Of a stretch of DNA of 37,177 nucleotides, positions 1,537 through 36,387 are shown piece after piece (position 1 is the stretch's first letter; each line of letters begins with the position of its first letter). The notes beneath the pieces were generated by a model. It was not told the DNA's origin. It made no database searches and saw nothing but the letters and a program-made list of their open reading frames with translations. Source of the stretch: Candidatus Kaiserbacteria bacterium RIFCSPHIGHO2_01_FULL_58_22 (GTDB lineage: Bacteria > Patescibacteriota > Minisyncoccia > Phycocordibacterales > UBA2100); contig MFLB01000039.1 in NCBI GenBank assembly GCA_001781445.1, positions 1 through 37,177 of the forward strand. Direction: 5' to 3'. Both the position numbers and the translations under genes were made by a program.

Positions 1537-1726
1537 TAGAACCCATCTCAAAAATAAACGCACTACGAAAATACAAAGTCAGCTTGGCTACTGCGGCCGC
1601 TTCCGCGCGGCTCCGGCGCCGAACGGCTCGGCCTCATCGTGTCGCGGACACGCTTCGGCCTGCGCCGCGGCGCCTCGCTCGCGCGGAAGCGGCCTCGTTA
1701 CGCCATTATTTTTGAGATGGGTTCTA
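1537..1726. repeat. 190-bp GC-rich palindromic element with perfect 21-bp terminal inverted repeats
   Basis: TAGAACCCATCTCAAAAATAA at 1537..1557 is the exact reverse complement of 1706..1726. An internal 15-bp perfect stem pairs GGCCGCTTCCGCGCG (1595..1609) with CGCGCGGAAGCGGCC (1680..1694). Confidence 0.85.
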
Positions 1727-2355: not shown

Positions 2356-5300
2356 CTAATCCGAGACGATGAGGTTCACGAGGCGGCCCGGCACGACGAT
2401 CGTACGAACGACCTGTTTTCCGTCCAAGCGAGCCGCAACCGCTCCCCGCGCCGCGGCCTCTTGAGCTTCCTTGTCCGCGTCTGCCGCGACGGATGCCTCT
2501 CCTCTCGTTTTCCCGTTTATCTGCACGGCGATGCGCACGGTTTCGTCTTTGAGCTTTGATACGTCGTACGAAGGCCATTTTTCAGTATGGATCGAACGCA
2601 TCTTTCTTGCTCCCCGTTTATCCTTCGTAGCTTTAGCGAAGGAGGACCAGAGTTCCTCGGTCATATGCGGCGCGAAGGGCGCCAATATCTTCAGGAAACG
2701 GACGAACTGGTCTTTGTTGATGCCTTCCTTTTCTGCGACATTCGTGAACGTCATCATCGCCGCAATGGCGGTATTGAACTTGAACGACTCTATGTCACTT
2801 CCCACTTTCAGTATCGTTTTGTGCAATTGCCGCTCGGTCCCCTCGGCTCCTCGCTCTTCGTTGCCTGCCCCGTAGCCATCCGAGCGAAGCGAGGATGTGG
2901 TACTGGGGTTCGCTCGCTGTCCCAGCCGCCACACGCGTTCAAGGAATCGCCGCGCGCCTATCATGCTCTCCGTGCTCCACGCGATCGAATCGGTGAAGGG
3001 CCCCATGAACATTTCGTACATGCGGAGCGTGTCGGCGCCGTAGGCCTTCACGATGTCGTCGGGATTTATCACGTTGCCGTAGCGCTTGCTCATCTTCTTT
3101 CCGTCGGGCGCCTGGATGAGTCCGACGGAGATCAGCCGCATGAACGGCTCGGGAGTGGAAACGACGCCGATGTCGTGCAAGAATTTGTGCCAAAAGCGCG
3201 CGTAGATAAGGTGGCGCGTCGCGTGCTCCGCGCCGCCCACATAGGTGTCTACCGGTGCCCAGTATTTCTCTTTTTTCTTATCGACGAGCGCTTTTTTGTT
3301 GTTCGGGTCCATGTAGCGCAGGTAGTACCACGAAGAACCCGCCCACTGTGGCATCGTGTTGGTCTCGCGCGTACCCGGACCCTTGCACTTCGGACAGCGG
3401 ACGTTGACCCATTTCGCAATACTCGCAAGCGGCGAGTGCCCCGTGCCGGTCGGTTGGTATGAATTCACCTCTGGCAATTTCACCGGCAAGTCCTTTTCCG
3501 GCACCGGCACGACACCACACTTGGCGCAATGAATGACAGGAATAGGTTCGCCCCAATAGCGCTGGCGGGAAAAAACCCAGTCGCGAAGCTTGTAGGTTAC
3601 CTTTGCGCGACCGAGTTTCCCGGTAATAGCTTTTCTTGCCTCTGCGCTCTCCATCCCGCTGAACTCTCCGGAATTCGCGAGTATTCCCTCCCCTTCGTAG
3701 CAGGCGCGGCCATTGATCCGTACCCACGCGATACGCATATCTTCGTGATTGATAAATTCGTCCATTTCTTTCTTCGTGAGCCATGTTATCTCGTGGTCCG
3801 CTTTTTCCTTTTCTGAAACTTGTTCGCAGGTGTCATCATCCAACGTAAAAAGGAACGGGGTGTAGTGAGCAAATGTATTCCATTTTCGAACAACACTGTA
3901 GTATTTGCCGTGGATCGTGCCGCCAAGCTTTCGCACAAGCGAGGTGTGTACATATCCAGTTTCTTCCCGTATCTCTCTTTGCGCTGTCGCGATCGGTTCT
4001 TCTCCCTCATCAATACCACCCGAAACACAGCCTCGCGTATCGGTGGGCTTATAGCGAACCGCAAGGTACTTGTCTTCGGACCAGTGCTTCACAAAGGCGA
4101 GAATAGCCGGTCGGTCGTGAAAGGGTCCGTCTGCGTGTACAGCATCGAGGCCGGTCGTCCGAACAGCGAGAGGCTCGATAACTTCGACGATAGGCAACTT
4201 GAACTTTTTGGCGAATTCGAAGTCGCGTTCGTCGTGCGCGGGGACTGCCATAATGGCGCCCGTGCCGTAGTGCGCGAGCACGTAGTCGGCGATGAAAATC
4301 GGTATTTTCTTTCCCGTCGCTGGATTAACCGCTTCCACCCCTTCGAGCCGCACGCCGGTCTTCTTTTTTTGTTCCGTTATTCGCTCGAGCTCTGTCTTTT
4401 TGTCCGATAGCGCGATATATCGCACTATTTCATCCTCATTCTTCAGCAAACCTTTTTGCTGGATGGCGAGCCGCACCCAAGGGTGTTCGGGAGCGAGCAC
4501 CATGTACGTCGCGCCAAAAAGCGTATCTGCACGCGTCGTAAAGACCGTGATACTAGGCAGAAGAGCGTTCAAGACCATCGGCTCCTCTTTCCCCATGAAG
4601 TGCTTTTCCTCCGCATTTCCTTCGACCAGACGGGCTCCGAGCTCTTTGGCCAGAAATTTGAGATACGGTATCCGCCGAGTGCCCTCTTGCAGATCCGAGA
4701 GAATAACAGAGAATCCCGCAAGCTTTCTGATTCGTGCATAGTCGACGTCCCAATTGAAATGCTTCTGATACGGGCGCTCTACCGCTCCCGGGAATTTTGC
4801 ATTAACGGCTGATGCGACAAGCATGAGACCAGCGATAGGTCTATTGATCTTTTCGAGAACTTTGAGAGCTATCGCTCCGCCGAGACTGTGGCCGACTATG
4901 ATTGTGCGCTCGTCAATGGTGCACGTATCTAACACCTTTTTCACCTGCTCAGTTTCCTTGGGATTCCAGGAATTTGGCAACTCTGGCACTTGCACCTTCA
5001 ATCCCCTTCTCTCCAGCTCCCCATTTAGCCAAGGAATAAAAGCGCCAATCGGGGATTCCTTGTATCCATGCAGGAGTAGATAATTTGGCTTTGGCGCCGT
5101 CGTATTTTCAAATTCAAGCGGAAAATCTATCTCCGCGCCTTCGCTCCGGCCTATCCAGTTGCGCTGTGATTCTTTGATGTGTTCCTGCCATTCGGGAAGA
5201 TGCGATAGGTCATTGAGGAGCCGTTCGGCGTAGTCAGTGATCCGGAGCATCCACTGTCGCATAGGCCTCTTCTCGACGATTGTGCCGCATCGCTCGCAGG

Positions 5301-5823
5301 CATTGCCGTCGAGGTCTTCGTTCGAAAGCCCAGTCTGACATTTCGGGCACCAATTGATGGGTTCGTTCGATTCGTATGCCAGCCCCTTCTCCAGAAGCTT
5401 CAAGAATATCCACTGCGTCCACTTGTAGTACGAGGGGTCGGTCGTGTTTATTTCGCGGCTCCAATCGTAATCGAGGCCGATCGTCGAGAGTTGCTCCTTG
5501 AATCGCGCGATGTTCTTGGCGACGGCGGCGCGCGGATGCACCTTGTTCTGGATCGCGAAATTCTCCGCAGGCAGGCCGAAGGCGTCCCACCCCATCGGAT
5601 GCAAAACGCTATGCCCCGTCATCCGCTTGTGGCGTGCATAGACGTCGGTCGCGATATAGCCCTTCGGGTGCCCTACGTGAAGCCCTTCCCCCGAAGGGTA
5701 TGGGAACATGTCCAAGACATATGACTTTGGTTTTCTAGGATTCTCTTTGGAACGATAGATCTCCTTCTTCTGCCATTCACGCTGCCACTTTTTCTCTATC
5801 TTTTTGTGGTCATACTTCCGCAT
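2356..5823 (-). CDS. leuS: Leucine--tRNA ligase, enlarged (1155 aa) by in-frame alpha/beta-hydrolase and Nudix modules
   Basis: Has HIGH (HVGH, aa 49-52), KMSKS (KMSKR, aa 910-914), editing-domain motifs TTRADTLFGATY and GAIMAVPAHDERDFEFAKKF, RDWVFSRQRYWGEPIP, and a C-terminal tRNA-binding domain. Extra segments at aa ~237-424 and ~551-712. Confidence 0.95.
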   Translation of the reverse strand: MRKYDHKKIEKKWQREWQKKEIYRSKENPRKPKSYVLDMFPYPSGEGLHVGHPKGYIATDVYARHKRMTGHSVLHPMGWDAFGLPAENFAIQNKVHPRAAVAKNIARFKEQLSTIGLDYDWSREINTTDPSYYKWTQWIFLKLLEKGLAYESNEPINWCPKCQTGLSNEDLDGNACERCGTIVEKRPMRQWMLRITDYAERLLNDLSHLPEWQEHIKESQRNWIGRSEGAEIDFPLEFENTTAPKPNYLLLHGYKESPIGAFIPWLNGELERRGLKVQVPELPNSWNPKETEQVKKVLDTCTIDERTIIVGHSLGGAIALKVLEKINRPIAGLMLVASAVNAKFPGAVERPYQKHFNWDVDYARIRKLAGFSVILSDLQEGTRRIPYLKFLAKELGARLVEGNAEEKHFMGKEEPMVLNALLPSITVFTTRADTLFGATYMVLAPEHPWVRLAIQQKGLLKNEDEIVRYIALSDKKTELERITEQKKKTGVRLEGVEAVNPATGKKIPIFIADYVLAHYGTGAIMAVPAHDERDFEFAKKFKLPIVEVIEPLAVRTTGLDAVHADGPFHDRPAILAFVKHWSEDKYLAVRYKPTDTRGCVSGGIDEGEEPIATAQREIREETGYVHTSLVRKLGGTIHGKYYSVVRKWNTFAHYTPFLFTLDDDTCEQVSEKEKADHEITWLTKKEMDEFINHEDMRIAWVRINGRACYEGEGILANSGEFSGMESAEARKAITGKLGRAKVTYKLRDWVFSRQRYWGEPIPVIHCAKCGVVPVPEKDLPVKLPEVNSYQPTGTGHSPLASIAKWVNVRCPKCKGPGTRETNTMPQWAGSSWYYLRYMDPNNKKALVDKKKEKYWAPVDTYVGGAEHATRHLIYARFWHKFLHDIGVVSTPEPFMRLISVGLIQAPDGKKMSKRYGNVINPDDIVKAYGADTLRMYEMFMGPFTDSIAWSTESMIGARRFLERVWRLGQRANPSTTSSLRSDGYGAGNEERGAEGTERQLHKTILKVGSDIESFKFNTAIAAMMTFTNVAEKEGINKDQFVRFLKILAPFAPHMTEELWSSFAKATKDKRGARKMRSIHTEKWPSYDVSKLKDETVRIAVQINGKTRGEASVAADADKEAQEAAARGAVAARLDGKQVVRTIVVPGRLVNLIVSD

Positions 5824-16593: not shown

Positions 16594-16675
16594 ATAGTTC
16601 GTAGTTAGTAGATAGTAGTAAGTAGAGAGTCTATTTAATTTAACTACTAACTACAGACTACTTTCTACTAACTAG
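16594..16675. repeat. Intercistronic palindromic unit, TAGTAGT/CTACTAA subfamily (atpG|rdgB spacer)
   Basis: Arms at 16594..16625 (ATAGTTCGTAGTTAGTAGATAGTAGTAAGTAG) and 16644..16675 (CTACTAACTACAGACTACTTTCTACTAACTAG), 82 bp in total. Starts 1 nt after the atpG stop and ends 4 nt before the rdgB ATG. Confidence 0.85.
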
Positions 16676-16676
16676 T

Positions 16677-17594
16677 TCATCGCATCGCCTCGATGCCGCT
16701 CGTTATCTCGGATACCTCGCGCGTGATGGCGGCCTGGCGCACCTTGTTGAAGGTGCGCGTGAGGTCGCCCGCCATTTCCTTGGCTTTGTCGGTCGCGTTC
16801 TTCATCGCGACCATGCGGGCCGAGTGTTCGGAGGCTTTCGCTTCGAGGAGCGCGTGGAAGACCGCGATGTTCAGTAGTTTCGGAAGGAGCGCGCTCAAAA
16901 CCTCTTCGGGGCTCGGCTCGATGGTGTAGACCGCCGGCTGTTCATGTTTTTCGCCGGTTTCCGGTGCATATTTCCCTTTTGCCGGCCTGATGTGCTGTAC
17001 CATCTCCCGCATCATCTCCGCGGTTATCGGCACGATCTGGCGCACGCCCGCCTCCTGCTCGAAGGTCGAGAGAAAATTCTGATACGCGATGACGCACTCG
17101 CCGACCTCCCCGGCTTCTTTCCATTCGAGCAGTTTGTCGGTGATCATCCGCGTCTCCCCCTCGGAAACCCCGTCGCTTACGTTTTCGTGCTTGACGCGCA
17201 CCTCGTAGCCGCGCGAGGCGAAATAGTCCCCGCCGCGGCGGCCCACGGCTATCATGACGACGTCGTTCTTGGCAAGGCGTCGCCTTGCTATCTCGGCTTC
17301 GACACTGCGCACGACGGCGCTGTTGAGGGAGCCTGCCAGTCCCTTGTCGCTCGTAATGACGATTATGCAGGTCTTCCCTATCTGCTCCTTCGCGAGCGGG
17401 TGCCGCTCGGCGTCCGGCGTCCCTGCGAGACGCTCCAGCACGGAGAGGGCCGCGGCCGCGTACGCACGCCCATTCAAGGCGCGCTCCTGCGATTTCCGCA
17501 TCTTGACCGCCGAGACGGCTTCCATCGCGTGCGTTACCGTCCCCGTCTTTTTGTAGGAGACTATTTTCGTCTTGATGCTTTTGAGGGAAGCCAT
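16677..17594 (-). CDS. atpG: F1 ATP synthase subunit gamma
   Basis: 305 aa. N-terminal LKSIKTKIVSYKKTGTVTHAMEAVSAVKMRK and C-terminal ...FNKVRQAAITREVSEITSG helices are typical of gamma. Confidence 0.92.
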   Translation of the reverse strand: MASLKSIKTKIVSYKKTGTVTHAMEAVSAVKMRKSQERALNGRAYAAAALSVLERLAGTPDAERHPLAKEQIGKTCIIVITSDKGLAGSLNSAVVRSVEAEIARRRLAKNDVVMIAVGRRGGDYFASRGYEVRVKHENVSDGVSEGETRMITDKLLEWKEAGEVGECVIAYQNFLSTFEQEAGVRQIVPITAEMMREMVQHIRPAKGKYAPETGEKHEQPAVYTIEPSPEEVLSALLPKLLNIAVFHALLEAKASEHSARMVAMKNATDKAKEMAGDLTRTFNKVRQAAITREVSEITSGIEAMR

Positions 17595-17596
17595 GC

Positions 17597-17679
17597 GATA
17601 GTAGTTAGTGGTCAGTAGTCAGTAGTTAGTAGTAAAATGCATCAAGACTACTTTCTACTTTCTACTAACTATTTACTAT
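17597..17679. repeat. Intercistronic palindromic unit, TAGTAGT/CTACTAA subfamily (atpA|atpG spacer)
   Basis: Arms at 17597..17634 and 17646..17679, 83 bp in total. The right arm includes the atpA codons IVNS-TAG. The left arm ends 2 nt before the atpG ATG. Confidence 0.85.
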
Positions 17680-29973: not shown

Positions 29974-30020
29974 AGAAGTTGGAAGTTGGAAGTTGGAAGT
30001 TGGAAGTTGGAAGTTGGAAC
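29974..30020. repeat. Tandem heptamer (GGAAGTT) x about 6.7
   Basis: AGAAGTT then five exact GGAAGTT then GGAAC. On the mRNA this is (AACTTCC)n, ending 5 nt before the ftsL-like ATG. Confidence 0.9.
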
Positions 30021-30041
30021 CTGACTTCCTTCAATTTTTTT

Positions 30042-30995
30042 CTAAGCTCCAATCTTTAACTTCTCAATTACACGAAGTTTCGCGCTTCGGGCTCTCGGAT
30101 TCGCAATGACCTCCTCTCTGCCGGGAACGACGGGTTTCTTGACGAGGCGCTTTCCCTCCCCATCCTTTTCCCACGCCGCGAACATCCGCTTCACGAGCCG
30201 ATCCTCGAGGCTGTGGAACGAGATCACCGCTATCCGGCCTCCCGGCGCGAGTAGTTTCCACGCCGCCGCGAGGCCCTCCGAAAGCGCTCCGAGTTCGTCG
30301 TTGACCGCGATGCGGAGCGCCTGGAACGTGCGCGTCGCCGGGTGGATCCTACCCCCGCGATATCCGCGAGGCGTCGCCTCGCGGATCGTCTCGGCAAGTT
30401 CGTGAGAAGTGCGGAAGGGATGTTTATGCCGACGTTCCACGATCGCTCTCGCTATTCGCCGCGCATAACGCTCCTCGCCGAAGCCGAAGATGATGTCCGC
30501 AAGCGTTTTCTCGCTCCACGTGTTCACGATGGTCGCGGCGGTAACCGCCTCCGCTCCGGGATGCTTCGCGTACGTCATCAACAGCGGCTCGTCCGCCTTG
30601 AACGAAAATCCTCTTCCCGCCTGCGCCCAGCTTGCGGCGGGCAGGCCGGAGTCCAAATTCAACTGATACGAACTCATGCCCAGATCGAAGAGAGCTTTCG
30701 TCATCGACTTCACGCCTAAACGCTCGAGCTCGCGTCCTATATTGCGGAAATTTCCGCATACAAGGCGAACCGGCGCGCGAGCATGTGCAAGGACCTTCCG
30801 CGTGCGTTGAAGCGCGTCGGAATCCGCATCAAAACCTATGAAGAGCCCGTTTCCTCCGAGGCCCTTCACCAACTTTTCTGCGTGTCCTCCACCGCCAAGC
30901 GTTGCGTCTAGGACGACGTCGCCGCGCCGCACGTCGAGCAGGAAAACTACTTCATGTAAAAGAACCGGCGTATGCCCCGACTCGTCTTTAGTCAT
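30042..30995 (-). CDS. rsmH: 16S rRNA (cytosine1402-N4)-methyltransferase
   Basis: Start at MTKDESGHTPVLLHEV (30995). DATLGGGGHAEKL SAM motif, ISFHSLEDRLVK, ...NPRARSAKLRV. Confidence 0.92.
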   Translation of the reverse strand: MTKDESGHTPVLLHEVVFLLDVRRGDVVLDATLGGGGHAEKLVKGLGGNGLFIGFDADSDALQRTRKVLAHARAPVRLVCGNFRNIGRELERLGVKSMTKALFDLGMSSYQLNLDSGLPAASWAQAGRGFSFKADEPLLMTYAKHPGAEAVTAATIVNTWSEKTLADIIFGFGEERYARRIARAIVERRHKHPFRTSHELAETIREATPRGYRGGRIHPATRTFQALRIAVNDELGALSEGLAAAWKLLAPGGRIAVISFHSLEDRLVKRMFAAWEKDGEGKRLVKKPVVPGREEVIANPRARSAKLRVIEKLKIGA

Positions 30996-31098
30996 GGGAT
31001 CGGTGCTCCGTTTCGGGTGACGGCACCGGGTTGCTGGAGGAGGTAAGTCGCGTGCGCATATTTTTTTGGTCCTCCAGCCACCCCGTGTCATCAAGATG

Positions 31099-31175
31099 GT
31101 TAGTAGTTAGTAGTTAGTAGTTAGTAGTTGGATTTTGCATTTGTATCCACTACGGTCTACGAACTACTTTCTACG
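31099..31175. repeat. Palindromic unit with four exact TAGTAGT repeats (mraZ|rsmH spacer)
   Basis: (TAGTAGT)x4 at 31101..31128, loop GGATTTTGCATTTGTATC, partner arm CACTACGGTCTACGAACTACTTTCTACG at 31148..31175. Contains the family 12-mer ACTACTTTCTAC. Confidence 0.85.
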
Positions 31176-31182
31176 TTCTGCC

Positions 31183-31617
31183 CTACAGTGCTCCGATCTC
31201 GCCGAGTTTTTCCGCCAATGCATCGGCCCGTTTCTCGATGCGGGTCTTGTACGCGCGCCAGCGTTCCCTCTCCCACACTTCGATCCGATCCGAGACTCCG
31301 GCGAATATCACGTGTTTCTTCAGGCCCGCGAACGCTTTCTGGTGTTCGGGGATGAGTATTCTTCCCGCCCCGTCAACTTCGACTTCGGCCGCGCCCGATA
31401 GCATGAATCGCGCGAAGCCACGCGTATCCGCCTGAACGAACGAGAGCGATTGCAGTTTTCCGGCGACGTTCTCCCAGGAGCTACGGGAATAGACGAAGAG
31501 GCAGTTGTCGAGCCCCCGCGTCATGACCACTTTCTTCCCGAGAGCCGCTCTAAAGGCCTTCGGGAGGGAGACGCGCTTCTTCTCGTCCAAGCTGTGTTCG
31601 TACTCGCCGATAAACAT
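31183..31617 (-). CDS. mraZ: Transcriptional regulator MraZ
   Basis: MFIGEYEHSLDEKKRVSLPKAFR... and a second SpoVT/AbrB-like repeat ...VDGAGRILIPEHQKAFAGL. The ATG at 31617 is preferred to the track GTG at 31641, which lies inside the putative operator. Confidence 0.9.
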   Translation of the reverse strand: MFIGEYEHSLDEKKRVSLPKAFRAALGKKVVMTRGLDNCLFVYSRSSWENVAGKLQSLSFVQADTRGFARFMLSGAAEVEVDGAGRILIPEHQKAFAGLKKHVIFAGVSDRIEVWERERWRAYKTRIEKRADALAEKLGEIGAL

Positions 31618-31852: not shown

Positions 31853-33442
31853 ATGCTCCGCATCTTCAAAAACGCGACATCAGAAGCGCTCGAAGAGATC
31901 GCCGAGGAGATGCGCGTGCGGAAAGCCTCGAAGTTCGTACTGCTCTTCTCGATGGGCTCGCAGTTCGACCACCTCATCGTCCAACAGCTCGCGAAGCTCG
32001 GCGTCTTCTGCGTCGTCGCCGATCCCGCGACCGTCAAAGCCGACGACGTCGAAAAAGCGAGACCGGCGGGGGTCATTCTTTCGGGAGGCCCCGCGTCCGT
32101 GGAGACGGAGCCGCCGCCTTTTGATGAGAAGATATTCGACCTCGGCATTCCCACGCTCGGCATTTGTCTTGGATTCCAAATGTGGGCGAAACATATCGGA
32201 GCAAAGGTGCCGCCGTCCGAGAAACGAGAGTTCGGCATTCATACATTCACACGCACCGGAGACGACCCGCTTTTCGAGGGAGTGGCCGAGCACACGCAGG
32301 TGCTACAAAGCCACGGTGACACGATCCTTCCCGGCTCCGAGATCACCGTCCTCGGCACGACGGACAATTCTCCGATCGCCGCCGGACACTATAAACATCT
32401 CCGGGGCGTGCAGTTCCATCCGGAAGTCTCGGACACGCTCGAGGGCGCGAAGATGTACGAAAATTTTTGCGTGAAGATATGCGGGATACGCGACCGCTTC
32501 CCCGCTCACGATGTCGCGAAGCAAAAGGTGATGGAATTAAAAAAGCTCGTCCTCGGCAAGCGTGTTCTCATCGCGCTCTCCGGCGGCTCCGATTCGTCTG
32601 TCGTCGCATATCTCTTAAAAGAAGCGGGTGCCAAACTCAAAGGTATTTACATACGCGGGATAGATCGCCCGGACGACGAGGCGTACGTGAAAAAATATTT
32701 CGGGAATGAAGATTGGATAGAGCTTGAAATTGTCGACGCGACGCAGGAATTTCTGAAAGCGCTCAAAGGCAAGTTCTCGATGCGCGAGAAGCGCCTCGCG
32801 ATGCGCGGCGTGTACAAAGACGTGCTCGAGAAGGAGATAACAAAGTTCAAAGCCGACTATATCGCGCAGGGAACGCTCTACACCGACGTACGCGAGAGCG
32901 GCCATGGACATGCGACAGGCGCGCGCGTCGCGGAGATAAAAGTGCATCACAATGTGAAACTCGGATTTTCTGTGCCGGAGATCGCCCCGCTTGAAGATCA
33001 GGTCAAGGACTCCGCGCGCGGCATCGGACGCGACATCGGCGTGCCTGAAGATCTACTCGTGCGTCATCCCTTCCCCGGCCCCGGCCTCGTGGTGCGCATC
33101 GAGGGAGAAGTAACGGCGGAGAAACTTAAAACCGCGCGCGTCGCAGACGGCATCTTCATCGATGAACTGCGCGCGGCGAAACTGTACGAAACCGTCTGGC
33201 AAGCGGGCGCGGTCGTCACCTCCTCGGAGCACGTGGGCACCAAGGGCGACGACGTCGCGCTCGGGCACGTCGTCGCGCTCTGGGCCGTCTGGAGCGTGAA
33301 CGGCTTCACGGCGCGCTTCGCCAAACTCCCCTACGAATTCCTGGACAGGGTTTCCCGTCGGATAACGAACGAGGTGCGCGAAGTCGGCGCGGTCGTGTAT
33401 CGCATTTCCGACAAACCCCCCGCCACCATCGAATGGGGCTAA
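31853..33442 (+). CDS. guaA: GMP synthase (glutamine-hydrolysing)
   Basis: 529 aa. Has a GATase domain (GICLGFQMW, HGD...), ATP-PPase P-loop ALSGGSDSSV and C-terminal ...DKPPATIEWG. An alternative start lies at Met21 (31913). Confidence 0.93.
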   Translation: MLRIFKNATSEALEEIAEEMRVRKASKFVLLFSMGSQFDHLIVQQLAKLGVFCVVADPATVKADDVEKARPAGVILSGGPASVETEPPPFDEKIFDLGIPTLGICLGFQMWAKHIGAKVPPSEKREFGIHTFTRTGDDPLFEGVAEHTQVLQSHGDTILPGSEITVLGTTDNSPIAAGHYKHLRGVQFHPEVSDTLEGAKMYENFCVKICGIRDRFPAHDVAKQKVMELKKLVLGKRVLIALSGGSDSSVVAYLLKEAGAKLKGIYIRGIDRPDDEAYVKKYFGNEDWIELEIVDATQEFLKALKGKFSMREKRLAMRGVYKDVLEKEITKFKADYIAQGTLYTDVRESGHGHATGARVAEIKVHHNVKLGFSVPEIAPLEDQVKDSARGIGRDIGVPEDLLVRHPFPGPGLVVRIEGEVTAEKLKTARVADGIFIDELRAAKLYETVWQAGAVVTSSEHVGTKGDDVALGHVVALWAVWSVNGFTARFAKLPYEFLDRVSRRITNEVREVGAVVYRISDKPPATIEWG

Positions 33443-33445
33443 TCT

Positions 33446-33462
33446 ACGAGGCGTCGCCTCGT
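33446..33462. repeat. Hairpin ACGAGGCG-t-CGCCTCGT flanking the Y1 transposase gene (5' side)
   Basis: Palindrome immediately after the guaA stop. The 19-mer at 33450..33468 is 17/19 identical to 34181..34199. Confidence 0.7.
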
Positions 33463-33474
33463 GGGGTTACATGA

Positions 33475-33480
33475 TATAGT
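33475..33480 (+). promoter_or_regulatory. Candidate -10 box TATAGT 6 nt upstream of the Y1 transposase ATG
   Basis: Reads ATGATATAGT-tgcgat-ATG. Confidence 0.4.
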
Positions 33481-33486
33481 TGCGAT

Positions 33487-34173
33487 ATGGCGTATAGGCG
33501 TGTCCCTTTTCAACTTGATGAGTGGTTCCATTGTTATAACCGAGGCATTGATAAGCGCACGGTATTCGAGTCAGAAGATGACTCAGAGCGTTTTCTTAAG
33601 CTGCTCTATCTTGCAAATTCGGAAGCGAATCTTCATCTGGCCGATATTTCAGATAAAACTGACGCTATCATGACGCGCCAACGGAAAGGAGTTCTCGTTT
33701 CTATCGGCGCGTACTGTCTGATGCCAAACCACTTTCATTTGCTGCTGAAAGAGGTCGTCGAGGGCGGGATCATAAGATTCATGCAAAAGCTCGGGACCGC
33801 CTATGCTATGTATTTCAATACGAAGAATGAGCGATCGGGAAACTTGTTCTTGAAGCCGTTCCGATCGCGACATGTTGGCGATGATCGCTACTTTCAGCGC
33901 GTCGTAGATTACATCCACTGCAACCCGGCAGAACGATTCGAGCCGGGATGGAAAAGAGGCACTGTTCGCAACATGAATCGTCTTGAGCGGCAGCTCCGTG
34001 ACTACCGCTATTCGAGCTTTCCCGACTATGCCCGCGAACGCCGTGCCATCGCCGCAATTTTATCGGACGACGGCTTCAAAGTGTATCGAGATCGCGGACA
34101 GCGAAGAATGCTCGACGACGCCCGTGCCTACTACGCGGACATCGACTTGGATGACCGTGGCCTGCACTCCTGA
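33487..34173 (+). mobile_element. IS200/IS605-superfamily Y1 (HUH) transposase, REP-associated tyrosine transposase (RAYT)-like
   Basis: 228 aa. Has the HUH motif in YCLMPNHFHLLL, the catalytic-Tyr region VVDYIHCNP, and N-terminal ...WFHCYNRG. Confidence 0.8.
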
Positions 34174-34177
34174 CCCG

Positions 34178-34199
34178 CAAGGCGACGCCTCGTGGGTTT
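34178..34199. repeat. Hairpin (C)AAGGCG-a-CGCCT(CG) flanking the Y1 transposase gene (3' side)
   Basis: Direct-orientation counterpart of 33446..33468: GGCGACGCCTCGTGGGTTT. Confidence 0.65.
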
Positions 34200-34985: not shown

Positions 34986-36090
34986 CTACTGATATTCACA
35001 CATCTCCCTCCACATAGTTCGCAGGTTTGATACCATGGGGACATGAGTACCCCCCACCCCAACCGGGCTCTGTCTGTCCAGGAGCTCGAAGACCGCCGGA
35101 AGGCGGCAGGCCGATTATTCGACAAAGGAAAGACGGCGTACTTCGTCGCGAAGCGCTTCGCCGTCTCAACCGCGACCGCGCGCGAATGGAAAGAACGCTG
35201 GGCGAGGGGGACGCTCGCGGCACAACCGCAGGGTCCTCACTCGAAACTCACGAAGGCGCAAGAAAAGGAGATCGTTTCCGCGATCCTCGCGGGACCGGAG
35301 AAGGCCGGATACCGAACCCAGCTCTGGACGCTCTCGCGCATCACCGAGCTCATCAGAAAGACGCAGGCCGTGTCGTACAAGCCGCGCTCCGCGTGGCATC
35401 TCCTCCGACGTCTTGGGTTTTCCTGTCAGCGTCCCGAGCGAAGAGTGAGGTAGCGCGACGAGGAGGCGATCACACGCTGGACAAAGACGGAGTGGCCGAA
35501 ACTCCGAAAAAGGGGGCGCTCCTTCGCGTGACCTTCTGTTTCCTTGACGAATCGGGGTACTCGGAACGTCCGACAGTCCGAAGCACGTGGGGGAGGAAAG
35601 GAGAGACACCCATCATTCGGTCGACCGGATCGTGGAAGAGCATCTCGGCGACCGGCATCATCGCGACCGATGTTGCCCTGAGGCGCGTGCGCGAACTATG
35701 CACGTTCAAAAAAGGTTCGGTGCGCAAAGAAGACACCGTGAATACGCTCAAGCATCTTCTGCGACACGTGAAGGGTCGGATCGCGCTCTTTTGGGACGGT
35801 CTCGCGCAGCACGGAGCGAGAAGTGTCCGCGAGTACCTCGCCGGACACCGCGACCGCTTCGTCATGGTCGAGCGCTTCCCCGCCTACGCGCCAGAGCTCA
35901 ATCCCCAGGAGTACCTCTGGTCGTCGTCGAAAACGAAAGACATGGCGAACTACTGCCCGGAGAAGCCGGACGATCTCGCGCAAAAAGCGCGTATGAGCCT
36001 CAGGCGCATCCAACGCCGTCCCGACATTCTGCGGGGTGCGCTCAAGAAGTCAGGATTATTTGGAGGAGGGAGTTAAGTGAAGCTCAGTAG
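34986..36090 (+). mobile_element. IS630-family insertion sequence, decayed
   Basis: Imperfect 26-bp terminal inverted repeats, CTACTGATATTCACACATCTCCCTCC (34986..35011) versus the reverse complement of 36065..36090, 20/26 matching. Length of about 1.1 kb is typical of IS630. No clean TA duplication is seen. Confidence 0.65.
35043..36076 (+). pseudogene. IS630-family DDE transposase interrupted by an in-frame TAG and a frameshift
   Basis: The N-terminal HTH part (35043..35453) ends at TAG 35451. The same frame continues RDEEAITRWTKTEWPKLRKRG to TGA 35529. The catalytic part (FLDESG, LFWDGLAQH, PELNPQEYLW) is in the -1 frame from about 35507, across an A5G5 run (35507..35516). Confidence 0.8.
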
Positions 36091-36145
36091 ATTCGCCTTG
36101 GGTGGCTTGCCGAGAGTGAGCCCAAGTTTATCGCGGGCGAATCGA

Positions 36146-36164
36146 GTGGACCCGAGGGGTTTCG
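36146..36164. repeat. 19-bp direct copy of the tRNA-Ala 3' end
   Basis: GTGGACCCGAGGGGTTTCG is identical to 36314..36332. Confidence 0.9.
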
Positions 36165-36314
36165 GTCACAGCTCTCGCTTTGCTCGGCCGCGACCCCGCC
36201 TCGCCGACAAGCATTCGCTTCGCTCATCTTGTATACCGGCTCCGGCCTTCGAAACCCCTCGTGCCCTACAAAAATATAGTCGCCCATTGCTCCGCAATGT
36301 TCTCCTGATTTTTG

Positions 36315-36387
36315 TGGACCCGAGGGGTTTCGAACCCCTTGCCTCGTCTATGCCATAGACGCGCTCTACCAATTGAGCTACGGGCCC
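36315..36387 (-). tRNA. tRNA-Ala (anticodon GGC)
   Basis: GGGCCCGTAGCTCAATTGGTAGAGCGCGTCTATGGCATAGACGAGGCAAGGGGTTCGAAACCCCTCGGGTCCA has the G3:U70 identity pair, anticodon loop ATGGCAT and T arm AGGGG-TTCGAAA-CCCCT. CCA is not encoded. Confidence 0.92.

What the first reader, a model, noticed from the sequence alone, without database searches (positions are those of the whole stretch)
36146..36332. tRNA-Ala shows the same 3'-end duplication (19 bp, 168-bp spacing), plus a 14-nt inverted T-arm copy inside the insert
GTGGACCCGAGGGGTTTCG occurs at 36314-36332 in the tRNA and at 36146-36164. Inside the 149-bp insert, TTCGAAACCCCTCG (36248-36261) is the exact reverse complement of the T-arm/acceptor segment present in both direct repeats. 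The trailer RNA could therefore form a 12-14 bp helix with either the decoy copy or the tRNA's own 3' half. The adjacent motif GCTCCGGCCTTCGAA (36239-36253) parallels GCTCCGGCGATTCGAA in the tRNA-Glu insert and GCTCCGGCGCCGAA in the 1537-1726 element. The decayed IS630 ends only 55 bp away (36090), consistent with an insertion hotspot.
Basis: partly seen in the sequence, partly recalled or inferred. Interest (0 to 1): 0.7.

Follow-up and report, generated by a model that had tools for sequence, protein, structure and literature searches.

The report
tRNA-tail structured insertion element family
The duplicated tRNA-Ala end marks one copy of a widespread, undescribed family of tiny non-coding elements in Patescibacteria that insert into tRNA genes, rebuild the tRNA's 3' end, and wrap a conserved folded core in arms copied from the host tRNA.

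Summary
The window has an exact 19-bp direct repeat of tRNA-Ala positions 56-74 and an exact 14-nt inverted T-arm copy. tRNA-Glu has the same layout.

It is neither a misassembly nor an integrase scar. It is one copy of a repeat family. On the tRNA strand the order is: tRNA, about 50 nt of spacer, an antisense arm (H5) complementary to the host tRNA's 3' half, a conserved 63-90-nt two-hairpin core, then a direct copy (H3) of the tRNA from T-loop C56 to its end.

- A motif scan plus a covariance model found 113 copies in about 90 metagenome and genome loci.
- 73 of them lie just downstream of a same-strand tRNA, covering 12 amino-acid types in the deduplicated subset.
- The arms match the local tRNA.
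- The core shows strong covariation and a conserved G·U pair.
- Rfam has no such family.
- A near-identical strain contig lacks exactly the 162-bp tRNA-Glu unit, so the unit is gained or lost as a block.

Best reading: a non-autonomous mobile element whose arms are templated from its target. The mobilising enzyme and intermediate are unknown. The claimed links to the 1537-1726 element and to IS630 are not supported.

The parts
36314..36387 (-). tRNA-Ala(GGC), intact. Its last 19 nt (36314-36332, positions 56-74) are direct-repeat copy 1.
   Evidence: ARAGORN. Rfam tRNA at 61.3 bits. Repeat coordinates.
36267..36313 (-). Spacer 'A'. By analogy with the Glu locus it is element-borne. It holds a small hairpin (CAUUGC-GGA-GCAAUG), and its ends extend the pairing between the tRNA 3' end and the antisense arm. 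No intrinsic terminator was predicted here.
   Evidence: Sequence, fold and terminator scan. That the spacer belongs to the inserted unit was shown at the Glu locus.
36250..36266 (-). Antisense arm H5 (GGGCACGAGGGGUUUCG on the tRNA strand). It is complementary to tRNA-Ala positions 56-72. The exact 14-nt stretch is 36248-36261.
36164..36247 (-). Conserved core: GCCGGAGC, hairpin 1, GCGAGGCGGGGUCGCGG, hairpin 2, CUGUGACC. It is a long-form copy whose hairpin 2 is poorly paired.
   Evidence: Covariance-model hits of 44.8 bits (E = 1e-6) and 45.6 bits (E = 5e-9). Structure and covariation.
36146..36164 (-). Direct arm H3, the 'decoy'. It is direct-repeat copy 2 of tRNA-Ala positions 56-74 and pairs with H5 to close the core.
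   Evidence: Fold of the element alone gives -63 kcal/mol.
25791..25863 (-). tRNA-Glu(CTC), intact. Its last 18 nt (25791-25808) are the direct-repeat copy.
25647..25808 (-). The 162-bp unit that is absent from a near-identical strain contig: 144-bp insert plus one 18-bp repeat. The placement is ambiguous within the repeat. It contains the spacer, H5 (25731-25742) and a diverged long-form core (about 25647-25730).
   Evidence: Empty-site contig L220 aligns to 26539-25809 and 25646-25341 with a clean 162-bp gap. Homology of the core to L113. Model score 16 bits, E = 0.03.
25629..25646 (-). Decoy copy of tRNA-Glu positions 56-73, followed by the native trailer (CACAACAU...).
   Evidence: The native trailer is identified by the empty allele L220.

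Best explanation
The 36146-36332 feature is one copy of a family of small, non-coding, non-autonomous insertion elements. They live in Patescibacteria (Kaiserbacteria/Paceibacteria-like genomes) and target tRNA genes.

**Shown**
- The unit consists of a spacer, an antisense arm, a conserved structured core and a direct copy of tRNA positions 56 to the 3' end.
- The unit behaves as a block. At tRNA-Glu it is present in some strains and precisely absent in another, leaving one copy of the repeat.
- The duplication starts at the same T-loop position in different tRNAs and has variable length (8-82 nt).
- Both arms match the local tRNA.
- The core folds as two hairpins with covariation and a conserved G·U pair. 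The relevant structure is therefore on the tRNA strand, as RNA or single-stranded DNA.

**Inferred**
- The element enters at the T-loop with a long, variable target duplication that preserves an intact tRNA.
- The direct arm is target DNA.
- The antisense arm is re-templated on it, for instance by intrastrand template switching at the quasi-palindrome or by a polymerase/reverse-transcriptase strand switch.
- Together the arms form a mimic of the tRNA acceptor/T-arm helix that closes the core into a three-way junction. Such a helix could plausibly be recognised by tRNA-processing enzymes or by an unidentified trans-acting mobilising protein.
For: - **Family and structure.** An exact-motif scan gave at least 120 metagenome loci. 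Covariance-model searches gave 128 hits at E < 0.1 and 113 at E < 0.001, with up to 5 copies per 14-kb locus. In the structure, 98.0% of cells are paired, against 80.5% in shuffles and 35-44% in slid controls. There are 354 cells with changes on both sides, and one G·U pair is kept in 108 of 112 sequences.
- **tRNA association.** 73 of 113 copies have a same-strand tRNA within 250 nt upstream. The 59 deduplicated tRNA-adjacent copies cover 12 amino-acid types.
- **Fixed boundary.** The repeat starts at T-loop C56 in 35 of 38 cases.
- **Host-matched arms.** The antisense arm has at least 10 nt exact complementarity to its own tRNA in 31 of 59 copies, against 2.8% for non-cognate tRNAs. The direct arm has at least 12 nt identity in 32 of 59, against 0%. 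A complement of the tRNA tail lies downstream in 50 of 69 tRNAs with a core but only 19 of 105 without one.
- **Mobility.** There is an empty site at tRNA-Glu with a clean 162-bp gap and only 4 mismatches in 1037 nt. Orthologous tRNA-Glu loci in congeners carry no element, a decayed one, or a different core type. Tandem and nested copies occur in L204, L088, L102, L134 and L189.
- **No protein partner.** No neighbouring protein recurs; the largest cluster covers 6 of 90 loci. No integrase was found near either window copy.
- **Not previously catalogued.** Rfam has no match.
Against: - No mobilising enzyme, intermediate or fresh insertion has been seen.
- The empty allele could equally arise by deletion between the 18-bp repeats.
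- Many copies have a terminator-like hairpin between the tRNA and the core. This argues against efficient co-transcription and so against a purely RNA-level life cycle.
- Where the decoy and the tRNA differ, the antisense arm does not preferentially follow the decoy: 3 positions fit the decoy only, 7 fit the tRNA only, out of 17 informative positions. Selection on arm-arm pairing is therefore unproven.
- Only 45 of 108 copies have an uninterrupted helix of at least 7 bp directly next to the core.
- The motif used for the metagenome scan biases the sample toward one core subtype.
Confidence: 0.6

Rival explanations
1. These are scars of classical integrase-mediated integration. A phage or island carrying the tRNA 3' end in its attP integrated into the T-loop. 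It was later deleted down to about 150 bp, leaving attL (the rebuilt tRNA) and attR (the decoy).
For: A direct repeat running from the T-loop to the tRNA end is the classic signature of elements integrated in tRNA genes (own knowledge of Williams 2002; partial tRNA copies flanking 9-23-kb elements are described in PMC9897764). In strain L216, homology with the window begins exactly at the outer end of the Ala decoy. L032 has a 1.45-kb two-gene segment between the tRNA and a decoy.
Against: - No integrase lies in or near either window copy, and none recurs near 90 loci.
- The insert is a conserved structured core present in over 100 copies of 60-170 bp, not random deletion remnants.
- The antisense arm and the mirror-image and non-tRNA copies are not explained by this model.
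- The unit lost in the empty allele is the whole 162 bp.
Confidence: 0.08
2. It is a host-beneficial, cis-encoded RNA module rather than a selfish element. One option is a 3'-trailer structure that forms a tRNA top-half mimic, is cut out by RNase P or RNase Z, and yields a stable small RNA. Another is a switch in which the antisense arm pairs either with the tRNA 3' half or with the decoy, modulating tRNA maturation.
For: - The structure is strand-specific, with covariation and a conserved G·U pair.
- Copies are always on the tRNA's strand, and no terminator is predicted between tRNA-Ala and the element.
- The two alternative folds are close in energy.
- The Ala arm helix reproduces G1-C72, G2-C71, G3·U70 and C4-G69 of the acceptor stem (read from the sequence).
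- At least three further core types use the same arm architecture.
Against: - Turnover at orthologous sites is rapid, and presence or absence varies at strain level.
- Decayed and truncated copies are frequent.
- Many copies lie behind terminator-like hairpins.
- Copies also occur after protein genes and away from tRNAs.
- Only 2 of the 8 tRNAs seen in this genome carry one.
- This reading is not exclusive of mobility.
Confidence: 0.25
3. It is chance similarity or an assembly artefact, such as a repeat collapse or a chimera.
For: Short repeats near tRNA genes can confuse assemblers, and the window comes from a metagenome-assembled genome.
Against: No shuffle reproduces the repeats. At least 10 independently assembled contigs from ENA, JGI and NCBI carry the identical Ala structure. 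More than 100 analogous copies exist in unrelated samples.
Confidence: 0.01

Closest known systems
Integrative elements that target tRNA genes (tyrosine-integrase phages, islands and ICEs with attP carrying the tRNA 3' end)
   Same: The insertion falls inside the tRNA gene at the T-loop. The tRNA is rebuilt by element-borne sequence. The displaced 3' fragment remains as a direct repeat at the far end. Copies accumulate in tandem at one tRNA.
   Different: The unit is 60-170 bp with no integrase and no coding capacity. The conserved part is a structured core. The element carries an extra antisense copy of the target. The repeat length varies from 8 to 82 nt from a fixed start. Mirror-image and non-tRNA insertions also exist.
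MITEs and REP/REPIN elements (small non-autonomous interspersed repeats)
   Same: They are small, non-coding, multi-copy, hairpin-forming, intergenic, often sit behind genes or terminators, and show strain-level presence or absence.
   Different: MITEs and REPINs have conserved terminal arms and variable interiors. Here the arms are copy-specific and target-derived while the interior is conserved. The RAYT-like genes in these genomes are flanked by unrelated palindromes. There is no fixed short target duplication.
Site-specific non-LTR retroelements and SINEs (target-primed reverse transcription; own knowledge)
   Same: One insertion boundary is fixed and the other varies, giving target duplications of variable length. 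Target-identical sequence sits at the element's 3' side. The architecture combines a tRNA-related part with a conserved core. The element is non-autonomous.
   Different: No reverse transcriptase is linked to it. There is no poly(A) or other tail. This is a bacterial host. The antisense arm has no counterpart in those elements. RNA mediation is not demonstrated.
IS200/IS605-type elements and class C group II introns (hairpin-guided insertion; own knowledge)
   Same: Many copies sit immediately 3' of a long hairpin. The strand-specific folded structure matters. Base-pairing between an internal segment and the target is conceivable.
   Different: Those elements make no long target duplication and have conserved ends or ribozyme domains. 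No Rfam intron or IS-associated RNA family matches.
tRNA-like structures processed by RNase P or RNase Z (mascRNA, plant-mitochondrial t-elements, viral TLS; own knowledge)
   Same: The arms form an acceptor/T-stem-like helix whose 3' strand is identical to a real tRNA. The element sits in a tRNA transcription unit.
   Different: The mimic is rebuilt from whichever tRNA is adjacent. Processing has not been tested. The discriminator is often paired.

Membership tests
tRNA-tail element family defined here (models R1 and R2) | Core GCCGGAGC, hairpin 1, GCGAGGCGGGGUCGCGG, hairpin 2, CYGUGACC, scoring significantly against the covariance model | tested here: met
   Window 36164-36247(-) scores 44.8 and 45.6 bits, E = 1e-6 and 5e-9.
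tRNA-tail element family defined here (models R1 and R2) | A 5' arm complementary to, and a 3' arm identical to, the 3' half of the adjacent upstream tRNA, with the repeat starting at T-loop C56 | tested here: met
   For Ala, H5 pairs over 17 bp and H3 is a 19-nt exact copy from C56. This matches the family norm.
tRNA-tail element family: the tRNA-Glu insert (25647-25742) | Same core and arms | tested here: inconclusive
   The arms are met (18-nt repeat from C56, 12-nt antisense). The model score is only 16 bits, E = 0.03. The 71-nt pairwise alignment to member L113 scores 80 against 25 ± 3.6 for shuffles. It is a diverged subfamily also seen in L166.
tRNA-tail element family: the 1537-1726 palindromic element | Same core | tested here: not met
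   7.4 bits, E = 3.3. Pairwise scores are at shuffle level. Only the octamer GCCGGAGC is shared.
Integrase-mediated tRNA-gene integration (attL/attR) | Direct repeat of the tRNA 3' segment flanking the insert | tested here: met
Integrase-mediated tRNA-gene integration (attL/attR) | Integrase or recombinase gene inside or next to the insert, with kb-scale cargo | tested here: not met
   The inserts are 149 and 144 bp. The neighbours are an IS630-type DDE_3 protein, a GNAT, a PfkB and an ArsR-like HTH protein. No protein recurs near 90 loci.
MITE | Terminal inverted repeats conserved between copies, and a short target duplication of fixed length | tested here: not met
   The arms differ with each host tRNA while the interior is conserved. 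Repeat length is 8-82 nt.
REP/REPIN mobilised by RAYT | The repeat sequence flanks the RAYT (Y1 transposase) gene of the same genome | tested here: not met
   The Y1 genes in the window, L004, L109 and L122 are flanked by other, species-specific palindromes.
Any Rfam 15 RNA family (ribozymes, introns, TLS, sRNAs) | Match at the gathering score, or a suggestive sub-threshold match | tested here: not met
   Only tRNAs reach threshold. Scans in E-value mode over elements of three core types found nothing relevant.
Retroelement (target-primed reverse transcription or SINE-like) | RNA intermediate and a reverse transcriptase partner | not testable with these tools
   There is no linked RT gene. Genome-wide co-occurrence and transcript data were not available.

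The most novel reading that the evidence does not exclude
A new class of bacterial mobile element. A protein-less, roughly 100-170-nt unit has a conserved three-way-junction core flanked by specificity arms that are rewritten from the target at every insertion, one arm sense and one antisense to the tRNA's 3' half. The unit therefore always forms a mimic of its host tRNA's acceptor/T-arm helix. It would spread through an RNA or single-stranded-DNA intermediate that exploits tRNA-processing or repair enzymes. In effect it would be a naturally re-programmable, tRNA-guided insertion system in ultra-small bacteria.
Probability: 0.3. Interest if true: 0.9.

Novelty: new variant of a known kind. Interest (0 to 1): 0.78.

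Why it matters
Patescibacteria have roughly 1-Mb genomes that are thought to be streamlined. Even so, some of the contigs examined here carry up to five copies of this element within about 14 kb, many sitting in or behind essential tRNA genes.

- **Mechanism.** The element reverses the usual logic of small repeats: the inside is conserved and the ends are target-derived. Both orientations of the target are copied, which points to an unrecognised insertion or templating mechanism.
- **Practical use.** The covariance model explains orphan tRNA 3' fragments that confuse tRNA annotation. It also flags a candidate structured RNA absent from Rfam.
- **If the tRNA mimic is processed.** It would be a bacterial example of a selfish RNA hitch-hiking on tRNA maturation.
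- **If the arms are rewritten on insertion.** It would offer a natural model for programmable, protein-light targeting.

The strain-level empty and filled alleles at tRNA-Glu make the question directly testable in existing groundwater datasets.

Tried and rejected
- **Autonomous parent or mobilising protein.** I clustered all ORFs of at least 110 aa within 2.5 kb of 98 copies. The largest cluster covers only 6 of 90 loci.
- **RAYT link.** The window's IS200-like Y1 gene is flanked by palindromes containing CGAGGCG, reminiscent of the core. Homologous Y1 genes in L004, L109 and L122 are flanked by unrelated palindromes, so I dropped this lead.
- **Phage carriage.** The 17-mer alone gave 7 viral hits, all chance matches in GC-rich coding DNA. 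The specific two-part motif gave 0 viral hits.
- **Known RNA families.** The Rfam gathering scan and E-value scans found nothing beyond tRNAs.
- **Tandem decayed tRNA copy.** The 55 nt upstream of the decoy bear no resemblance to tRNA positions 1-55 (read from the sequence).
- **tRNA-like gene on the opposite strand.** No T-arm or cloverleaf is present there, and ARAGORN and Rfam find nothing.
- **Does the antisense arm track the decoy or the tRNA?** Only 17 informative positions were available and the result is inconclusive.
- **Apparent distant decoys.** The L011 hit at +4 kb lies inside a ValRS gene and is chance.
- **Literature.** Five full-text searches found no description of such elements. 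One query was rejected for syntax. Williams 2002 could not be opened.
- **First contig look-up.** A look-up with the 465-aa SAHH ORF failed, probably because the start codon was wrong.

Full report
**1. Checking the observation**

tRNA-Ala(GGC) lies on the minus strand at 36314-36387 (ARAGORN; Rfam 61 bits). The 19-mer GTGGACCCGAGGGGTTTCG occurs exactly twice, at 36146-36164 and 36314-36332. No shuffle of 100 gave any match, even with two mismatches allowed.

On the tRNA strand the repeat runs from T-loop C56 through discriminator A73 plus one base. The 14-mer TTCGAAACCCCTCG at 36248-36261 is an exact reverse complement of the T-loop, T-stem and acceptor segment. With one G·U pair and one mismatch the complementarity reaches 17 bp.

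tRNA-Glu(CTC), at 25791-25863 on the minus strand, has the same layout. It has an 18-nt exact repeat of positions 56-73 located 144 nt downstream, and a 12-nt inverted T-arm copy.

**2. Genomic context**

The window is ordinary chromosome. It carries LeuRS, ATP synthase subunits, SAHH, PfkB, a Mur ligase, a PBP, MraW, GuaA and a GNAT. It also carries an IS630-type element (34986-36090) and an IS200-like Y1 gene. There is no integrase.

The closest SAHH relatives are Patescibacteria MAGs labelled Kaiserbacteria, Paceibacterota or similar. The source record is GCA_001783445.1, contig MFMF01000044.1.

**3. The same architecture elsewhere**

I scanned all tRNAs in the 80 related genome loci. 3'-end duplications starting at the same T-loop position appear at L003 and L007 tRNA-Glu and at L033 tRNA-Ser. 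Decayed versions appear at L002 and L005. L001 and L016 have none.

In each case an inverted copy of that locus's own T-arm lies upstream of a GC-rich segment. L033, L017 and the window Ala insert share GCCGGAGC...GCGAGGCGGGGTCGCGG.

About 25-30 of them are chance matches in GC-rich coding DNA. The rest share a clear module. On the tRNA strand the module reads:
- the tRNA;
- a spacer 'A' of about 15-170 nt, often with a terminator-like hairpin;
- H5, the reverse complement of the host tRNA's T-loop, T-stem and acceptor 3' strand, sometimes split at positions 65/66 by an extra hairpin with a conserved loop;
- the core: GCCGGAGC, hairpin 1, GCGAGGCGGGGUCGCGG, hairpin 2, CYGUGACC;
- H3, a direct copy of the tRNA from C56 onward.

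**4. Structure of the core**

RNAalifold on 38 short cores gives three features. A GCC:GGC helix encloses hairpin 1 through a GGA/GA internal loop. A GGG linker follows. Then comes a GUCGCGG:CYGUGAC helix extended by a variable stem.

On 113 model-aligned copies, 98.0% of cells are paired, against 80.5% in shuffles and 35-44% in slid controls. There are 354 cells with changes on both sides. One pair is G·U in 108 of 112 sequences. That alignment was fitted to the model, which favours the structure, but the slid controls and the independent MAFFT result agree.

The conserved wobble means the fold is specific to the tRNA strand, as RNA or single-stranded DNA. Rfam has no corresponding family.

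**5. Membership of the window copies**

| Window feature | Model score | Other evidence | Verdict |
|---|---|---|---|
| Ala insert | 44.8 and 45.6 bits | — | member |
| Glu insert | 16 bits, E = 0.03 | aligns over 71 nt to L113, score 80 vs 25 ± 3.6 for shuffles; shares the GAGGCGGUGCCYAG variant with an L166 tRNA-Ser copy | diverged member |
| 1537-1726 palindrome | 7.4 bits, E = 3.3 | pairwise scores at shuffle level | not supported |

**6. Statistics of the association**

- Of 113 copies, 73 have a same-strand tRNA within 250 nt upstream. Eight have one only downstream, 2 only on the opposite strand, 7 are at contig edges and 23 have none.
- The 59 deduplicated tRNA-adjacent copies cover twelve amino-acid types.
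- The direct repeat begins at the same T-loop position in 35 of 38 scorable cases. Its length ranges from 8 to 82 nt.
- H5 has at least 10 nt of exact complementarity to its own tRNA in 31 of 59 copies, against 2.8% of non-cognate pairings. H3 has at least 12 nt of identity in 32 of 59, against 0%.
- A complement of the tRNA tail is found downstream of 50 of 69 tRNAs that have a core but only 19 of 105 that lack one.
- Several of those 19 carry other cores with the same arm architecture. These are type B (GTGTACAG..CTGTAAG), type C (L003 and L007) and type D (L204 tRNA-Trp).
- Arm-arm helices of at least 7 bp adjoin the core in 45 of 108 copies, against 13% of mismatched controls.

**7. Evidence that the unit moves**

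The ArsR-like neighbour of tRNA-Glu retrieved two short contigs from sister samples. L219 is filled. L220 aligns to window 26539-25809 and 25646-25341 with 4 mismatches in 1037 nt and a clean 162-bp gap, which equals the 144-bp insert plus one 18-bp repeat.

The spacer, H5, the core and one repeat copy are therefore gained or lost together. The sequence after the decoy is the native trailer.

Further signs of turnover:
- Congeneric genomes carry different states at tRNA-Glu: none, decayed, type C, or this subfamily.
- Tandem units occur in L204 (2.6 units), L088, L134 and L189, and nested copies in L102.
- Mirror-image copies lie upstream of an intact tRNA with the tRNA's 5' part duplicated (L147, L173, L187, L105, L124).
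- Some copies lie behind protein genes (L113, L203) or between unrelated perfect inverted repeats (L165, L178).
- All ten contigs carrying the GNAT gene have the Ala element.
- Only 2 of the 8 tRNAs seen in this genome carry one.

**8. How it probably works**

*Shown.* The element is a block insertion or deletion at the T-loop. It keeps the tRNA intact because the duplication covers position 56 to the gene's end. One boundary is fixed and the other variable. The arms are copied from the local tRNA. The conserved fold is strand-specific.

*Inferred.* The pattern of fixed and variable boundaries resembles staggered or target-primed insertion more than recombinase crossover. The direct arm is most simply the target itself. 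The antisense arm must be re-templated, because near-identical cores (hairpin 2 AAUUUUUCAGCAGAAAAAUAU) sit next to Arg, Ser and Glu tRNAs (and after a tRNA-Trp) with different arms. Possible routes are quasi-palindrome template switching seeded by the conserved T-loop, or a polymerase strand switch.

The decoy copies the gene, not the mature tRNA, because no CCA is added.

Together the arms form a 12-17-bp helix equivalent to the acceptor and T stems. In the Ala copy this helix even keeps G3·U70. It could therefore be a substrate for RNase P, RNase Z or the CCA-adding enzyme. This is untested.

For the Ala transcript, the predicted swapped fold is -119.3 kcal/mol. In that fold the tRNA's 5' half pairs with the decoy and H5 pairs with the real 3' half. 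The fold with a cloverleaf plus the closed element is -111.5 kcal/mol. No terminator is predicted between the tRNA and the element.

**9. Rival explanations**

- *Integrase scars.* This explains the direct repeat, and is the known source of tRNA fragments (PMC9897764). It does not explain the conserved core, the antisense arm, the size, the copy number or the lack of integrases.
- *Host-beneficial RNA module.* This is compatible with the covariation but sits poorly with rapid turnover, decayed copies and terminators upstream of many copies. It may coexist with mobility.
- *Chance or misassembly.* This is excluded.

**10. Comparison with known systems and verdict**

The element works somewhat like a tRNA-targeting integrative element, and somewhat like a SINE or MITE. 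It fails the defining tests of each:
- no integrase;
- arms not conserved between copies;
- no RAYT-linked repeat;
- no Rfam family.

I found no description of it in five full-text searches. I rate it a new variant of small non-autonomous bacterial repeats. There is a real possibility, about 0.3, that it represents a new mechanistic class with target-rewritten, tRNA-mimicking arms.

The links to the 1537-1726 element and to IS630 were not.

Noticed in passing
window 33442-34195 and 30362-30384: An IS200-like Y1 (RAYT-type) gene at 33487-34173 is flanked on both sides by near-identical palindromes (ACGAGGCG-T-CGCCTCGT). A third copy lies at 30362-30384. Homologous Y1 genes in L004, L109 and L122 are each flanked by their own species-specific palindrome. 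This looks like a REP/RAYT system in Patescibacteria.
   Followed up: partly
window 1537-1726: A 190-bp element with 32-bp terminal inverted repeats (TAGAACCCATCTCAAAAATAA...) and a GC-rich, self-complementary interior. It is not a detectable member of the tRNA-tail family and its nature is unknown. Copies with unrelated perfect inverted repeats around a related core exist in L165 and L178.
   Followed up: partly
L216:1000-1130 versus window 36090-36165: In another strain the sequence left of the Ala decoy is the end of an EamA gene rather than the IS630 region. Homology with the window starts exactly at the outer end of the decoy. The decoy boundary therefore coincides with a rearrangement breakpoint.
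   Followed up: no
L102, L110, L166, L187, L196 (type B); L003, L007 (type C); L204:8905-9100 (type D): At least three other conserved cores sit between the same kind of host-tRNA-derived antisense and direct arms. One example is GTGTACAG-hairpin(CTGTAAG)-CGA. None matches Rfam. The arm architecture is therefore more general than any one core.
   Followed up: partly
L204:9840-9945; L157, L163, L166 decoys: Even smaller insertions sit inside the elements. Units of 28-35 nt with a CTCTGAGAG hairpin ending in CTCGAWTGAG interrupt one L204 copy twice. A 12-16-nt hairpin with a GUAA loop is inserted in the T-loop part of several decoys.
   Followed up: no
window 16595-16686, 17588-17690, 19628-19676, 20447-20670, 31097-31192, 29975-30023: Runs of 7-nt repeats (TAGTTAG / ACTAACT, and GAAGTTG) occupy many intergenic gaps, often as inverted pairs flanking genes of the ATP-synthase region. 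Their function is unknown.
   Followed up: no
window 26068-26089 and 26415-26436: Perfect 22-bp inverted repeats (ACCCGCACATACTTGGGTATGT) bracket the 99-aa ArsR/MarR-like HTH gene next to tRNA-Glu.
   Followed up: no
window 36091-36145: The 55 bp between the IS630 end and the Ala decoy form their own palindrome: GATTCGCC...GGCGAATC around CTTGGG...CCCAAG. This segment is absent in strain L216.
   Followed up: no
window 2356-5823 (-): The leucyl-tRNA synthetase ORF (1155 aa) carries extra alpha/beta-hydrolase-like and NUDIX domain matches inserted within the synthetase.
   Followed up: no
L032:6020-7540: Here the tRNA-Glu and its decayed decoy with a short antisense arm are separated by 1.45 kb. 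That segment encodes a 172-aa ORF and a 187-aa membrane-like ORF (neither was scanned against any family library). Either the spacer can carry cargo or it was invaded later.
   Followed up: no
window 21447-21486: A perfect 40-bp palindrome (TATAACGCTAGCTTACGCGGCCGCGTAAGCTAGCGTTATA) lies in an intergenic gap.
   Followed up: no
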